DNA of 64,000 nucleotides from Escherichia phage HY03, in sequence record NC_031047.1. The stretch is one strand, 5' to 3'. The notes beneath the pieces are model-generated. The model did no database searches, was not told where the DNA came from, and was given only the letters and a program-made list of their open reading frames with translations. A program made the translations under genes and the position numbers. Shown piece after piece: positions 87 to 56,835 of this stretch (the first letter of the stretch is position 1; the number at the start of each line of letters is the position of its first letter).

Positions 87-752
87 TTAAAATTTCATTT
101 TTCGACCTTTAAACCATCCTTCTGGAATTGGGTCAGTTTTCTTAATACGTTTAGAAACTTTTTCATCTAATGAATGAATCCACATCATACCAAATTGGGA
201 ATTCTTTTCACCTTGTTGGTGTTTATTTTTGGCGTGAGATTCTTTCATTTTATTAATAGTTTCAGGAGTATGATGCTTATTTAAAAATCTGCTATTATTT
301 AAAAATTTTTCCCTGTATTCAGGAGTTGACCACAAACGTTTAAATACATTTGAACCATGTTTACGATATTTTTCTTGAAGTAAAATATCATTTTTAAAAC
401 GTGACTTAAACGATTTAGCTCCTTTTAAACTAGCGTCTTTCTTCTGGTTTAGCATCCCAGGAATATTTATATGGTCCCATCCACCTTCACCACCTAATTT
501 CAAATTATAAACATCAGGGCGCTTTAAAAACTCTTCAGTCACAATATTCTTTTCTGACTCAAACATAGAGGTTTTATCGTCAAAGAACTCTAATATTTCT
601 TTAGAAAAATTTTCTATACCATACTTATCTTGAGCTCTTTTTAATAATTTACCAGAACCCATATATCCATCATCTAAATTTTCGGTAGAATGCACACCAA
701 TATAAATTTTATTATTAATTTTATTTGTTATTTTATAAGTGTAATGGAACAT
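87..752 (-). CDS. segB: GIY-YIG homing endonuclease (Seg-type)
   Basis: 221 aa; N-terminal GIY-YIG motifs (KIYIGVHST, YMGSGKLL); adjacent to tRNA cluster as segB is in T4; paralogous to ORF 42446..43063. Confidence 0.65.
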   Translation of the reverse strand: MFHYTYKITNKINNKIYIGVHSTENLDDGYMGSGKLLKRAQDKYGIENFSKEILEFFDDKTSMFESEKNIVTEEFLKRPDVYNLKLGGEGGWDHINIPGMLNQKKDASLKGAKSFKSRFKNDILLQEKYRKHGSNVFKRLWSTPEYREKFLNNSRFLNKHHTPETINKMKESHAKNKHQQGEKNSQFGMMWIHSLDEKVSKRIKKTDPIPEGWFKGRKMKF

Positions 753-1297: not shown

Positions 1298-1930
1298 TTA
1301 TTTATTACGTGAAAAAGACTGTTCTATCAATTCTGGACACTTTCGTTCTATCCATTTTCTAGCTTTTTGTGGGCTTATACCTATTATTTTAGCAGCTTTA
1401 CTAACCCATCCAAATTTAGAATAATCGATTTTAACTAATTCTTCGTAAATTTCATCAGTTAAAATCTTTTCATTAATATTTACCAGTAAATGATATAATT
1501 TGTTATCATTAGCAATTTTAATGAATCTTTTATAGTTTCCGCCTTTACTTAAACCTAATGAAGTAATTGCAGATGATATAGTAGCCGAATTTAATAATGC
1601 GTTTAAAATTTCTTCATCACTAACATTATAACGCTTTTTATTATTTTTAATATTTTTACCAGCAAAAGTATCAGTTTGCGAATGACAGTTTGGACATAAT
1701 AATCTTAAATTTGATTTAAGATGATTTTTGTTATTTCCATCAATATGGTCTAATTGCAGAACAATATGCTTATTTTGCCATTTTGAAATTTTACAAATTG
1801 CACACTCATATGGAAAAATATTTTCTTTTATTATTTTGTCTTTCAGCTTTCCTGTACTAAAATTTGGATGTTTTCCTTCAAAAATTTCAGCTAATTTAGT
1901 ATCCATAATATGATTCCCAATTATTAACAA
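1298..1930 (-). CDS. HNH homing endonuclease
   Basis: 210 aa; HNH motif CAICK...LQLDHIDGNNKNHLKSNLRLLCPNCH; abuts tRNA-Leu where T4 carries tRNA-Gln. Confidence 0.65.
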   Translation of the reverse strand: MLIIGNHIMDTKLAEIFEGKHPNFSTGKLKDKIIKENIFPYECAICKISKWQNKHIVLQLDHIDGNNKNHLKSNLRLLCPNCHSQTDTFAGKNIKNNKKRYNVSDEEILNALLNSATISSAITSLGLSKGGNYKRFIKIANDNKLYHLLVNINEKILTDEIYEELVKIDYSKFGWVSKAAKIIGISPQKARKWIERKCPELIEQSFSRNK

Positions 1931-54636: not shown

Positions 54637-55281
54637 TTATCCTTGAACGAACTTGTAAGGCATGTTTGCAATATCTATGCAAGACGCAATAATTCCAAGA
54701 GATGATTCTACTTTCTGTTTAACATTTGATGAAACAAATGATGCAAAGTCAACTCTGTCTTCTATTTCAATATCACCTGTCATTGCAACTACTTCACCAG
54801 TTTCCATTAGACGGTCACCGTCATAAATTACTGATTCGGTGAGTTCTTCCGTAGTCATAACTTCAGCTTGAATGAGTTTTGTATTATTAAATGTTGTTCC
54901 GTCATTATTAGAAGCATCAGTTATTTTATTAACTTTGACCATCAATCCACGTGGTAGAATAACTTCAGCTTCTGTTGCTATTCCGAGACTTCCTGGATAT
55001 ACAACATTAACTTTATGAGCTCCATCAATTGCCCATCCTATTTGAACTTTAACGTATTCAGGATTTTCTTTATACGCTCTTATTTCGTTTGGATTAATAG
55101 TTATTCCTTCTTCATTTTTATCAACTGTCAATTCATTACGAGCTTCTGGTTCTAAAAGACCGATACCAGCATGTGTAATTCCAAAACGTCCAAAAATGAT
55201 AGGAGTTAAAGAAGTAGATACAAAATTTCTGAAATAGAACACTTTATTTTTAACTAATGCTTCGTATATAGGAGCAGTCAA
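54637..55281 (-). CDS. ADP-ribosyltransferase-like protein, apparently N-terminally truncated (Alt/Mod-like)
   Basis: 214-aa ORF from a TTG start; STS motif (FVSTSLTP) and E-x-E (TEAEV) about 90 aa later, but no upstream Arg-motif region; in-frame stop 5 codons upstream. Confidence 0.4.
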   Translation of the reverse strand: MTAPIYEALVKNKVFYFRNFVSTSLTPIIFGRFGITHAGIGLLEPEARNELTVDKNEEGITINPNEIRAYKENPEYVKVQIGWAIDGAHKVNVVYPGSLGIATEAEVILPRGLMVKVNKITDASNNDGTTFNNTKLIQAEVMTTEELTESVIYDGDRLMETGEVVAMTGDIEIEDRVDFASFVSSNVKQKVESSLGIIASCIDIANMPYKFVQG

Positions 55282-55282
55282 T

Positions 55283-55633
55283 ATGAAAGGTAATGTTTAT
55301 TTAGTAGTTCATGATTTAACATTCTATTTTAATCATAATGATACTGTTATTTCTGAACGTGTAATTAATTTGCTTTATCAGCATGCAGATTATGTTTATG
55401 TCGAAAACGAATATGGTCATTGGCAATTTCTCAAAAATCGTTCATTTGGTTTAGATGGTTACGAATATTTTGATCGTAAAGACCTTTTAGATACAATTCC
55501 GTTATCTACACAATATCAAAATCATAAGTCTTTACATAAATGCCGGCTAATTCGAAATGCTGAATCCGCGTATGAAGCAATTGATTTATGGCGTAAACGC
55601 CGTGAACAGATTGATGCTTTAAAAGAATATTAA
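55283..55633 (+). CDS. hypothetical protein (116 aa)
   Basis: ORF with Shine-Dalgarno GGAG before ATG; begins at the synteny breakpoint. Confidence 0.5.
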   Translation: MKGNVYLVVHDLTFYFNHNDTVISERVINLLYQHADYVYVENEYGHWQFLKNRSFGLDGYEYFDRKDLLDTIPLSTQYQNHKSLHKCRLIRNAESAYEAIDLWRKRREQIDALKEY

Positions 55634-55639
55634 GAAACC

Positions 55640-55995
55640 GGGTCGCTACCGGTAAGTCGTCGGACTGATGTTCCCTGGAGTATAGTTTCCTCCCACAGTT
55701 TTACTGTGTTCTGGCTCTTTACTATTACAGCAGAAACGGCGCACCGAATTATCGATTCGAGGAAATATCTTTGCCATAAGCCGAGTAGCGTTTTTGACGG
55801 AACGTTCGGATATGGTCGAGATATGGCCTTTTAAAAATATTGAGTAGCGTCAACTACTTAATAACCGGGTTCAAATCCCGGCGTTTCGTACAAACACTTG
55901 CCTTAGCAGGTGGAACCCCGACAAGGTTGCCGCAAGGCTTAGCCCTGACCGAAAGGTTGGGGCTTTTTAGTTTGAATCACTCAGAGAATGCTGTT
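55640..55995 (+). ncRNA. candidate structured small-RNA locus
   Basis: About 400 bp with no ORF of 60 aa or more; tRNA-like T-arm CCGGG-TTCAAAT-CCCGG (55864-55880); terminal hairpin CCCTGACC-GAAA-GGTTGGGG plus T-run (55951-55976). Confidence 0.25.
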
Positions 55996-56043
55996 ACGGA
56001 TAATAAATAATTAATAACCAATAAATTATTTCAAGGATTTTAA

Positions 56044-56607
56044 ATGAAAACCTATGCCGAATTTTTAACTGAAGCAGCAAAATTACCATCTGAAGCAGAT
56101 CTTACTAAAGTATTCTTCCACTTGGACCCAAAAGACCGGGGCGATTTTCTTAAGTGGAAAGCTAAAGCTATTGAAATGTATAACATCGATAACAGTTCTT
56201 TTACGATGAGCCAAGAAAATAGTTTCAATAAAGCATTTTTCAAAATTTCTAAGAAATTGGCATCTGGCGCTCAGGTTTCTAAATCTGCATTAGCTACTCC
56301 TGAACGTGCACCTGTTAAAATTTCTAAGAATATGTTTGACACTAAAAAATATGTCAATGCTTTGAATAAAGCTCTTGATGCATTGGATGATGCAAAGAAG
56401 GCAGCCCGCGATCTTCAAGACGTGTATACCGATTTTGATCGTAAAACTAAAGGTTCTATTTCAAATAGCGAACGCAATAGTGTAAGTGTTTATTCTGATA
56501 GCCTTGATGTTCTTGGCGATGCATATACTGAAATTAAAAATCGTATTAACACCGCATCTAAGCTAAAAGCTGCTGCAGAAGCTATAATAACTAAACTAGG
56601 TAAATAA
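56044..56607 (+). CDS. internal-protein-like capsid-targeted protein
   Basis: 187 aa; N-terminal MKTYAEFLTE|A matches the T4 capsid targeting sequence cleaved by gp21. Confidence 0.6.
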   Translation: MKTYAEFLTEAAKLPSEADLTKVFFHLDPKDRGDFLKWKAKAIEMYNIDNSSFTMSQENSFNKAFFKISKKLASGAQVSKSALATPERAPVKISKNMFDTKKYVNALNKALDALDDAKKAARDLQDVYTDFDRKTKGSISNSERNSVSVYSDSLDVLGDAYTEIKNRINTASKLKAAAEAIITKLGK

Positions 56608-56615
56608 TTTTAAAT

Positions 56616-56640
56616 CCCTATCTAAATGATAGGGCTTTTT
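56616..56640 (+). terminator. rho-independent terminator
   Basis: Hairpin CCCTATC-TAAATG-ATAGGG followed by CTTTTT. Confidence 0.55.
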
Positions 56641-56762
56641 GGTATCTAGGCCTTTCCGGGCCTCTCTAGGCATCATTTAGTTTATATCCTTTATAATATA
56701 TTATCCTACCTTTTAATTGCCCCTCCCCGCCCTAAAATTCCCTAAAAATTTTTCACAAAACT

Positions 56763-56792
56763 GTTTACATCCCTGTTCTTCTATGGTACTAT
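56763..56792 (+). promoter_or_regulatory. T4 early-type promoter
   Basis: -35 GTTTAC, 18-bp spacer, -10 TACTAT, upstream of ORF 56836. Confidence 0.55.
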
Positions 56793-56835
56793 ATCAATAT
56801 CAACTACTGATACAGAAAACAACTTGGAGAATAAA

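What the first reader, a model, noticed from the sequence alone, without database searches (positions are those of the whole stretch)
55634..56043. About 400 bp non-coding stretch with tRNA-like and terminator structures
No ORF of 60 aa or more on either strand; contains a canonical tRNA T-arm (CCGGG-TTCAAAT-CCCGG) that I could not extend into a standard cloverleaf, and a strong terminal hairpin with GAAA tetraloop and T-run. T4 carries a tRNA-Arg and two small stable RNAs (RNA C and D) near the e.8 end of its tRNA region, so this may be their counterpart or degenerate tRNA remnants.
Basis: partly seen in the sequence, partly recalled or inferred. Interest (0 to 1): 0.45.

Follow-up and report, generated by a model that had tools for sequence, protein, structure and literature searches.

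The report
Phage T4 stable RNAs D and C
This non-coding stretch holds a T4-like phage's copies of two long-known small stable RNAs (rnaD and the tRNA-like rnaC) plus the terminator of the tRNA operon, so it is ordinary, although the function of these RNAs is still unknown.

Summary
Window 55630-55971 is the ortholog of phage T4 rnaD (species 2 RNA), rnaC (species 1 RNA), a trailer and the intrinsic terminator that ends the tRNA operon. It is 89.8% identical to T4 over 344 aligned columns and 100% identical to phage G4498. rnaC (55752-55890) matches T4 at 136 of 139 bases. rnaD (about 55630-55745) keeps T4's ends but has a different central about 50 nt.

ARAGORN and Rfam find nothing here because rnaC is only partly tRNA-like and Rfam has no matching family. 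A covariance model built only from rnaC of other phage genera hits 55753-55890 at 140 bits (E about 5e-36), the only significant hit in the window.

In 28 distinct homologs the rnaC fold is supported by compensatory changes in 28 of 53 pairs. The fold is an acceptor-like stem with a tandem U.U, a long hairpin, a second hairpin and a T arm. In addition, the 6-nt loops of the two hairpins (UUGACG and CGUCAA) are exact complements in all 28 and change together in two lineages, which points to a kissing-loop contact.

The function remains unknown in the papers read. Identity: already known. Separately, the window carries a probable mis-oriented contig join at 55279/55280.

The parts
55630..55745 (+). 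rnaD (species 2 RNA) ortholog, about 116 nt. The 5' end is placed by alignment to T4 and overlaps the TAA stop (55631-55633) of the upstream 116-aa ORF. The true ends in this phage are unknown.
   Evidence: Alignment to T4 T4s002 gives 97 identical of 124 columns. The first about 48 nt and last about 25 nt are nearly identical, and the central part is diverged.
55637..55653 (+). rnaD 5' hairpin ACCGG-GUCGCUA-CCGGU
   Evidence: Predicted. The closing pair covaries: A-U in 7, G-C in 3 and G-U in 1 of 11 distinct sequences.
55656..55744 (+). rnaD long irregular hairpin. The closing stem is 55656-55662 with 55737-55744, and the apical domain (about 55677-55722) is hypervariable between phage lineages.
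   Evidence: RNAalifold on 11 sequences gives 33 pairs, 10 with compensatory change, and an invariant closing stem. Three unrelated apical sequence types are seen.
55746..55751 (+). 6-nt spacer between rnaD and rnaC (GAATTA)
   Evidence: Alignment to T4, which has AAATTA.
55752..55890 (+). rnaC (species 1 RNA) ortholog, 139 nt, tRNA-like
   Evidence: 136 of 139 identical to T4 T4s001. Model R1, built without any Tequatrovirus sequence, hits 55753-55890 at 140.1 bits, E 4.9e-36.
55753..55759 (+). rnaC P1 5' strand (CGAUUCG). It pairs with 55882-55888 (CGUUUCG) to form a 7-position acceptor-like stem with a tandem U.U in the middle.
   Evidence: Third pair is G-C in 17 and A-U in 11 of 28. Positions 4-5 are U.U in 27 of 28 and Watson-Crick (U-A, C-G) in fHe-Yen9-01.
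55760..55829 (+). rnaC P2, a long hairpin of about 25 pairs with internal loops and a 3-nt bulge (GUA) below the apical stem
   Evidence: 15 of its 22 variable-region pairs show compensatory change. Three unrelated stem sequence types keep the same length and shape.
55794..55799 (+). P2 apical loop UUGACG, proposed kissing partner of 55848-55853
   Evidence: Exact reverse complement of the P3 loop in 28 of 28 sequences. It covaries with that loop in two lineages.
55830..55837 (+). A/U-rich single-stranded linker between P2 and P3 (UUUAAAAA)
   Evidence: Unpaired in the consensus structure, with several invariant A residues.
55838..55863 (+). rnaC P3 hairpin (10 pairs, 6-nt loop)
   Evidence: 8 of 10 pairs show compensatory change.
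55848..55853 (+). P3 loop CGUCAA, proposed kissing partner of 55794-55799
   Evidence: Two of 5 pairs covary (G-C 13, U-A 13, A-U 1, U-G 1 at the middle pair).
55882..55890 (+). P1 3' strand CGUUUCG, discriminator-like U (55889) and A (55890); genomic continuation CAAAC
   Evidence: Klebsiella-phage homologs encode U-CCA at this place.
55900..55938 (+). 3' trailer hairpin between rnaC and the terminator
   Evidence: Predicted fold of 55898-55975, z = -2.6. Conserved in T4-group phages.
55941..55969 (+). Intrinsic terminator of the tRNA/rnaD/rnaC transcription unit (10-bp stem, GAAA loop, U5)
   Evidence: Homologous to the T4 hairpin after rnaC. G29 annotates a terminator at the same place.
55970..56043 (+). 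A/T-rich leader of the next gene (187-aa ORF, 56044-56607), with AAGGA ribosome-binding site at 56033-56037
   Evidence: The ORF belongs to phrog_2280, function unknown.

Best explanation
The stretch encodes this phage's rnaD (species 2) and rnaC (species 1) small stable RNAs, followed by a trailer hairpin and the rho-independent terminator that ends the tRNA operon.

Biogenesis (taken from T4 literature and inferred here): in the normal genome arrangement, seen in G4498, the tRNA-cluster transcript reads through tRNA-Arg, a 116-aa ORF, rnaD and rnaC and stops at 55941-55969. rnaC has an acceptor-like stem stacked on a canonical T arm, so RNase P should cut at its 5' end. That cut also frees the 3' side of rnaD. 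Exonucleases, and possibly the CCA-adding enzyme, would finish the 3' ends.

Structure (shown here by covariation): rnaC is a four-helix RNA. P1 is the acceptor-like stem with a conserved tandem U.U. P2 is a long hairpin at the position of a D arm. P3 is a 10-bp hairpin. P4 is the T arm. The 6-nt loops of P2 and P3 pair with each other. This would either lock the RNA into a compact closed shape or join two molecules.

Function: not known. My best guess, at low confidence (about 0.25), is a nuclease-resistant tRNA mimic that occupies or diverts a host or phage tRNA-binding factor and so affects success on particular hosts.
For: Identity:
- 89.8% identity to T4's rnaD-rnaC-terminator stretch and 100% to G4498.
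- rnaC is 136 of 139 identical to T4.
- RB27, GiZh and T4 records annotate rnaC/rnaD at the homologous place.
- Same neighbours as in G4498: ORF116 upstream, ORF187 and the e.8 region downstream.

Structure:
- RNAalifold gives 46 pairs, 25 with compensatory change.
- On 28 sequences, 28 of 53 pairs have changes on both sides against 16.2 +/- 1.9 in shuffles and 5-10 in slid controls; 91.9% of cells are paired against about 40% when slid.
- The model built from other genera hits the window at 140 bits and finds one copy per phage locus and no significant match in 21 unrelated metagenome loci fetched by the same pattern.

Kissing loops:
- All 6 loop pairs are formed in 28 of 28 sequences.
- The loops read UUGACG/CGUCAA in most, UUGAUG/CAUCAA in fHe-Yen9-01 and UUGGCG/CGCCAA in Klebsiella phages, with no one-sided change.
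- The loop is kept even where the P2 stem sequence is replaced.

Expression and biogenesis in T4:
- Northern detection of RNAC/RNAD, function unknown (PMC9697503).
- An about 1.75-kb primary transcript that terminates after species I RNA (PMC2330249).

Host relevance: a convergent SNP in rnaD arose in a T4-like phage evolved on ECOR34 (PMC12685909).
Against: - No expression data exist for this phage.
- In the window as given, the tRNA cluster is 55 kb away on the other strand. If that arrangement is real, the RNAs would need another promoter, and promoter-like matches here are at chance level (10 found, 7.8 expected).
- rnaD folds no better than shuffled sequence (z -0.3 to -0.8), and its conserved stems do not vary, so its structure is weakly supported.
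- The kissing contact rests on two independent compensatory events only, and whether it is intra- or intermolecular is not determined.
- The T loop is non-canonical in some lineages (UGCAUUC, UGCAUGC), so full tRNA mimicry is not universal.
- The proposed function has no direct support. rnaC has no sequence match in 5,426 E. coli genomes, so it does not copy a host RNA by sequence.
Confidence: 0.93

Rival explanations
1. The stretch holds decaying tRNA pseudogenes (remnants of former tRNA genes) that are transcribed with the operon but have no function of their own.
For: rnaC has a tRNA-type T arm and acceptor stem and sits in tRNA arrays, directly flanked by tRNA genes in PG7, Melville and CW742. 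Annotation pipelines sometimes call its 3' part a tRNA (tRNA-Lys in G29, tRNA-Met in PG7). A degenerate tRNA-like element lies upstream of rnaC in Kc304. An origin from tRNA genes is plausible.
Against: Pseudogenes would drift. Instead rnaC keeps one fold, one length (137-140 nt) and invariant loops across Tequatro-, Karam-, Winkler-, Moon-, Teguna-, Gelderland- and Kanagawavirus, with many compensatory changes. In T4 the RNAs accumulate as stable species (PMC9697503).
Confidence: 0.03
2. The stretch encodes small proteins, as annotated in G4498 (two hypothetical CDSs of 42 and 56 aa) and several other records.
For: Short ORFs of 42 aa (GTG start) and 56 aa (TTG start) exist on the + strand, and similar ones exist in T4 and RB27. 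G4498 annotates them.
Against: They have non-ATG starts and are below 60 aa. They persist in T4 and RB27 only because the DNA is about 98% identical. In genera where rnaC is flanked directly by tRNA genes, the same frames would have to begin inside tRNA genes. Variation is of the paired-compensatory RNA type rather than codon-like. The region is an experimentally known RNA gene in T4 (PMC9697503).
Confidence: 0.02
3. The stretch is a cis-acting leader or attenuator that controls the downstream 187-aa ORF and the e.8 region, not a source of free RNAs.
For: It lies directly upstream of ORF187 and ends in a strong terminator, the layout of a transcription attenuator.
Against: In T4 no ORF187 exists and the same RNAs and terminator are present. 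In other genera rnaC is followed by tRNA genes, not by an ORF. No riboswitch or leader family matches.
Confidence: 0.02

Closest known systems
Phage T4 rnaC (species 1 RNA, T4s001)
   Same: 136 of 139 bases are identical. The length is the same, it sits last in the tRNA transcription unit before the terminator, and the predicted fold is the same.
   Different: There are three substitutions, one of them in the T loop (A for G). This lineage has an extra ORF upstream of rnaD and another downstream of the terminator.
Phage T4 rnaD (species 2 RNA, T4s002)
   Same: It has the same 5' hairpin, the same closing stem and conserved flanks, and the same 6-nt spacing to rnaC.
   Different: The central about 50 nt (apical part of the long hairpin) is a different sequence. 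This allele is shared with G4498, G29 and other records. Here rnaD follows a protein gene rather than tRNA-Arg.
Transfer RNA (Rfam RF00005)
   Same: A 7-position acceptor stem is directly joined to a 5-bp T stem with a UUCAAAU loop and followed by an unpaired 3' tail. It sits in a tRNA gene array.
   Different: There is no D arm, anticodon arm or anticodon. A 70-nt hairpin and a second hairpin take their place, and there is a tandem U.U in the acceptor stem. ARAGORN and the Rfam tRNA model do not detect it.
tRNA-mimicking non-coding RNAs such as bacterial Y-RNA-like YrlA and viral tRNA-like structures (comparison from my own knowledge)
   Same: A structured RNA that copies part of the tRNA shape and would be handled by tRNA-processing enzymes.
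   Different: There is no sequence or model match (Rfam at E up to 10). In YrlA the ends form a protein-binding stem rather than the acceptor stem, and plant-virus tRNA-like structures are 3' ends of genomes.
Loop-loop kissing complexes with fully complementary 6-7-nt loops, such as TAR-TAR* and ColE1 RNA I/RNA II (comparison from my own knowledge)
   Same: Two hairpin loops with perfect 6-nt complementarity.
   Different: Here both loops lie in one 139-nt RNA, and the contact is inferred from covariation only.

Membership tests
T4 rnaC (species 1 RNA) | Sequence homology to T4 T4s001 over its full length | tested here: met
   136 of 139 identical. 749 phage records match.
T4 rnaC (species 1 RNA) | Conserved fold: acceptor-like stem, long hairpin, second hairpin and T arm | tested here: met
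   The window sequence fits the consensus. The model from other genera scores 140 bits.
T4 rnaC (species 1 RNA) | Last gene of the tRNA transcription unit, just before its terminator and the e.8 region | tested here: inconclusive
   The terminator and the e.8-side neighbours are as in T4 and G4498. In the window, however, the tRNA cluster is separated by the junction at 55279/55280.
T4 rnaC (species 1 RNA) | Accumulates as a stable RNA of about 140 nt in infected cells | not testable with these tools
   Shown for T4 only (PMC9697503).
T4 rnaD (species 2 RNA) | Sequence homology to T4 T4s002 | tested here: met
   97 of 124 alignment columns are identical. The ends are nearly identical and the centre is replaced.
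T4 rnaD (species 2 RNA) | Lies immediately upstream of rnaC with a short spacer | tested here: met
   6-nt spacer as in T4.
T4 rnaD (species 2 RNA) | Stable transcript of about 120 nt | not testable with these tools
   Shown for T4 only (PMC9697503).
tRNA | Complete cloverleaf with D arm, anticodon arm and anticodon | tested here: not met
   No ARAGORN call and no RF00005 match even at E up to 10.
tRNA | Acceptor stem stacked on a T arm with a 7-nt T loop | tested here: met
   55753-55759 pairs with 55882-55888, next to the T arm at 55865-55881. Both stems are supported by covariation.
tmRNA | tRNA-like domain plus a tag-peptide reading frame | tested here: not met
   ARAGORN reports no tmRNA and Rfam has no match.
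Intrinsic (rho-independent) terminator | G+C-rich hairpin followed by a U run | tested here: met
   55941-55964 (10 pairs, 6 G-C) followed by TTTTT.
Hammerhead ribozyme (considered because rnaD has CUGAUG ... GAAA around a variable hairpin) | Conserved core CUGANGA / GAAA with three helices and a cleavage site | tested here: not met
   No hammerhead family matches at E up to 10. By my reading of the sequence, the base after CUGAUG is U here and G in T4, where the core needs A. The consensus fold does not give the three-helix junction.

The most novel reading that the evidence does not exclude
rnaC, whose function has been unknown since the 1970s, may have a tertiary contact I did not find described: the apical loop of its long hairpin (UUGACG) and the loop of its second hairpin (CGUCAA) form a 6-bp kissing helix. 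This would either close the RNA into a compact two-rod shape or assemble it into dimers or larger complexes. For the closed shape, the lower part of P2 (about 19 bp) is about as long as the P2 tip, the kiss and P3 together (about 22 bp). That shape, joined to a tRNA-type acceptor/T-arm end with a conserved tandem U.U, would be the functional unit. It could be a stable decoy or adaptor for a tRNA-binding host factor that matters on some hosts.
Probability: 0.4. Interest if true: 0.5.

Novelty: already known. Interest (0 to 1): 0.25.

Why it matters
As a genome feature this is routine. It is the rnaD/rnaC locus present in hundreds of T4-like phages, and here it is 100% identical to a deposited genome.

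It has some practical value. Many deposited records leave the locus unannotated or mis-annotate it as hypothetical proteins or odd tRNAs, and Rfam has no matching family. The alignment and model made here could therefore fix annotation.

It also has some scientific value. The function of these abundant RNAs is a 50-year-old open question. The covariation-supported fold and the loop-loop contact give precise mutants to test, namely single against compensatory double loop changes.

Tried and rejected
- **tRNA or tmRNA gene:** ARAGORN and Rfam are negative.
- **Any curated RNA family:** only chance-level Rfam matches at E 0.8-10.
- **Alternative 94-nt class-II tRNA cloverleaf for the 3' part of rnaC:** this is what some records annotate as tRNA-Lys(ttt) or tRNA-Met. 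Its acceptor would be CGGAACG with CGUUUCG. I rejected it because, by my reading of the alignments, that pairing becomes A-C in most non-T4 genera, whereas the 5'-end pairing stays Watson-Crick. The strands it needs covary with the long hairpin instead. The 'anticodon' CUUUUAA is not conserved.
- **Copy of a host RNA:** no blastn match of rnaC in 5,426 E. coli genomes.
- **Hammerhead-like core in rnaD:** rejected (see membership test).
- **Pairing between the rnaD loop (CGCUAC) and GUAGCG in rnaC:** this is only a 6-mer, it shows no covariation, and a match of that size is likely by chance. Not pursued.
- **Wider family hunt:** one viral-contig scan was wasted on a wrong gap length. The metagenome scan gave 24 loci, of which only 3 were real rnaC, all of known types. 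I therefore found no relatives outside T4-like phages of enterobacteria.
- **rnaD outside the T4 group:** not detected by blastn.

Full report
**What is in the sequence**

The stretch 55634-56043 lies between a 116-aa ORF (55283-55633) and a 187-aa ORF (56044-56607). It holds no ORF above 56 aa on either strand. The T arm CCGGG-TTCAAAT-CCCGG is at 55865-55881, and the hairpin with a GAAA loop and a T run is at 55941-55969. ARAGORN finds seven tRNA genes in the window, all at 7-1291 on the minus strand, and none here. Rfam gives nothing here at gathering thresholds and only chance-level matches at E up to 10.

**Identity**

A blastn search of the 410 bases finds 809 phage records. Almost all are T4-like phages of Escherichia, Shigella, Yersinia, Salmonella and Enterobacter. 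One of them, G4498, is 100% identical. Records that annotate the homologous place call it rnaC and rnaD (RB27, GiZh, T4).

- T4's own stretch from the start of rnaD to its terminator aligns to window 55633-55971 at 89.8%.
- rnaC (55752-55890) is identical to T4 at 136 of 139 positions.
- rnaD (about 55630-55745) shares T4's first about 48 and last about 25 nt, but its centre is a different sequence. That allele is shared with G4498, G29 and other phages.
- The neighbours match the G4498 arrangement: tRNA-Arg, ORF116, rnaD, rnaC, terminator, ORF187, e.8.
- The two flanking ORFs belong to phage families of unknown function.

**rnaC is a structured, only partly tRNA-like RNA**

rnaC folds far better than shuffled sequence (z = -4.8). 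I collected homologs from GenBank phages, IMG/VR and metagenomes. They come from Tequatrovirus, Karamvirus, Winklervirus, Moonvirus, Tegunavirus, Gelderlandvirus, Kanagawavirus and Klebsiella phages. In the genera other than Tequatrovirus, rnaC stands alone among tRNA genes and no rnaD is detected.

RNAalifold on 22 distinct sequences gives 46 pairs, 25 of them with compensatory changes. On 28 sequences, 28 of 53 pairs change on both sides. Shuffles give 16.2 +/- 1.9 and slid controls give 5-10. In the real structure 91.9% of cells are paired, against about 40% when slid.

The fold has four helices:

- **P1:** an acceptor-like stem between the RNA's 5' end and the strand just after the T arm. 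Its third pair switches between A-U and G-C. A tandem U.U is present in 27 of 28 sequences and becomes U-A/C-G in fHe-Yen9-01.
- **P2:** a hairpin of about 70 nt at the place of a D arm.
- **P3:** a 10-bp hairpin that follows an A/U-rich linker.
- **P4:** the T arm.

A covariance model built only from the 18 non-Tequatrovirus sequences hits window 55753-55890 at 140 bits, E about 5e-36, and nothing else significant in the 64 kb. It finds one copy in each phage locus, and no significant match in the 21 unrelated loci that the metagenome pattern scan had pulled in.

**A loop-loop contact**

The 6-nt apical loop of P2 (UUGACG, 55794-55799) is the exact reverse complement of the 6-nt loop of P3 (CGUCAA, 55848-55853). 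This holds in all 28 sequences. It holds even in Gelderlandvirus, Kanagawavirus, Klebsiella phages and one Moonvirus (NM4.3), where the P2 stems are different sequences of the same length and shape. The loops vary in only two lineages, and both times on both sides: UUGAUG/CAUCAA in fHe-Yen9-01 and UUGGCG/CGCCAA in Klebsiella phages. There are no one-sided changes.

I infer a kissing-loop helix. It could be intramolecular. By my estimate the lower part of P2 (about 19 bp) is about as long as the P2 tip, the kiss and P3 together (about 22 bp), and a conserved 3-4-nt bulge could act as the hinge. It could instead be intermolecular. I found no description of this contact in the searchable literature, but the original papers from the 1970s are not in that library.

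**rnaD**

Eleven distinct sequences share three features:

- a 5' hairpin whose closing pair covaries (A-U, G-C, G-U);
- an invariant closing stem;
- a long irregular hairpin whose tip is replaced between lineages, with three sequence types seen.

Its fold energy is not better than that of shuffled sequence, so this structure is weakly supported.

**How it works**

For T4 the literature describes one primary transcript of about 1.75 kb that runs through the tRNA cluster and ends after species I RNA (PMC2330249). It also reports accumulation of RNAC and RNAD, detected by Northern blot, with unknown function (PMC9697503, PMC3014915). A 2025 study found the same SNP in rnaD in all lines of a T4-like phage evolved on host ECOR34 (PMC12685909). 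That hints at a host-specific role.

From the acceptor/T-arm module I infer RNase P cleavage at the rnaC 5' end, then 3' trimming. This agrees with what I recall of the older T4 literature, which I could not read here. Klebsiella-phage homologs encode U-CCA after the acceptor strand, which fits a tRNA-type 3' end.

The function is not shown. rnaC does not resemble any E. coli sequence. My working guess, a stable tRNA mimic that engages a tRNA-binding factor, is speculation.

**Rivals**

- Decaying tRNA pseudogenes are contradicted by the conserved, covarying fold.
- The small ORFs annotated in some records are contradicted by the RNA-type pattern of variation and by the tRNA genes that flank rnaC in other genera.
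- A leader for the downstream ORF is contradicted by T4, which lacks that ORF, and by other genera, where tRNA genes follow rnaC.

**Verdict**

What this analysis adds is a covariation-supported structure with a probable kissing loop, and a model usable for annotation.

Noticed in passing
window 55279/55280 and window position 1: The window is not collinear with any known T4-like genome. Positions 1-55279 run from tRNA-Arg (minus strand) to a C-terminal 214-aa fragment of the Alt ADP-ribosyltransferase, which matches positions 480-674 of a 674-position family profile. From 55280 the sequence continues with ORF116, rnaD and rnaC in the opposite orientation. In G4498 the two ends (window 1 and window 55280) lie about 9 nt apart, and none of 50,697 phage records spans the junction. 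The simplest reading is two contigs joined in the wrong relative orientation; a true 55-kb inversion is not excluded.
   Followed up: partly
window 1298-1930 (minus strand): A 210-aa ORF with an HNH-endonuclease-like motif (DHIDGNNKNH ... CPNCH) sits where T4 and G4498 carry tRNA-Gln. ARAGORN finds no tRNA-Gln in the window.
   Followed up: no
window 87-752 (minus strand): A 221-aa ORF that I read as a SegB-like GIY-YIG homing endonuclease (not searched against protein families here) lies between tRNA-Arg and the CAU-anticodon tRNA, at the position of segB in T4. G4498 has tRNA-Tyr and tRNA-Asn there instead.
   Followed up: no
window 56044-56634: The 187-aa ORF (phrog_2280, function unknown) is an insertion between the rnaC terminator and the e.8 promoter region, and it carries its own terminator at 56616-56634. 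T4 sequence downstream of its terminator resumes at 56616-56835. RB27 has a different, shorter ORF at this spot.
   Followed up: partly
L005 (Kosakonia phage Kc304), about 2430-2505: A degenerate tRNA-like element lies directly upstream of rnaC. It has acceptor GGGAGUU/AGCUCCC, an odd T loop AUCGUUA and an ACCA end. It is not annotated in the record and is not called by ARAGORN.
   Followed up: partly
public records G29 (L022 648-741), PG7 (L004 2554-2648), G9062, G4498 (L001 6073-6377): The 3' part of rnaC is annotated as tRNA-Lys(ttt), as a 95-nt tRNA-Met or as tRNA-OTHER, and the locus as hypothetical proteins. Most records leave it unannotated. Rfam 15 has no family that matches it.
   Followed up: yes
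window 55865-55881: The rnaC T arm contains GGTTCAAATCC, which fits the SegB recognition element GGTTCRANTCC reported in PMC2330249. rnaC may therefore be a potential SegB cleavage site.
   Followed up: no
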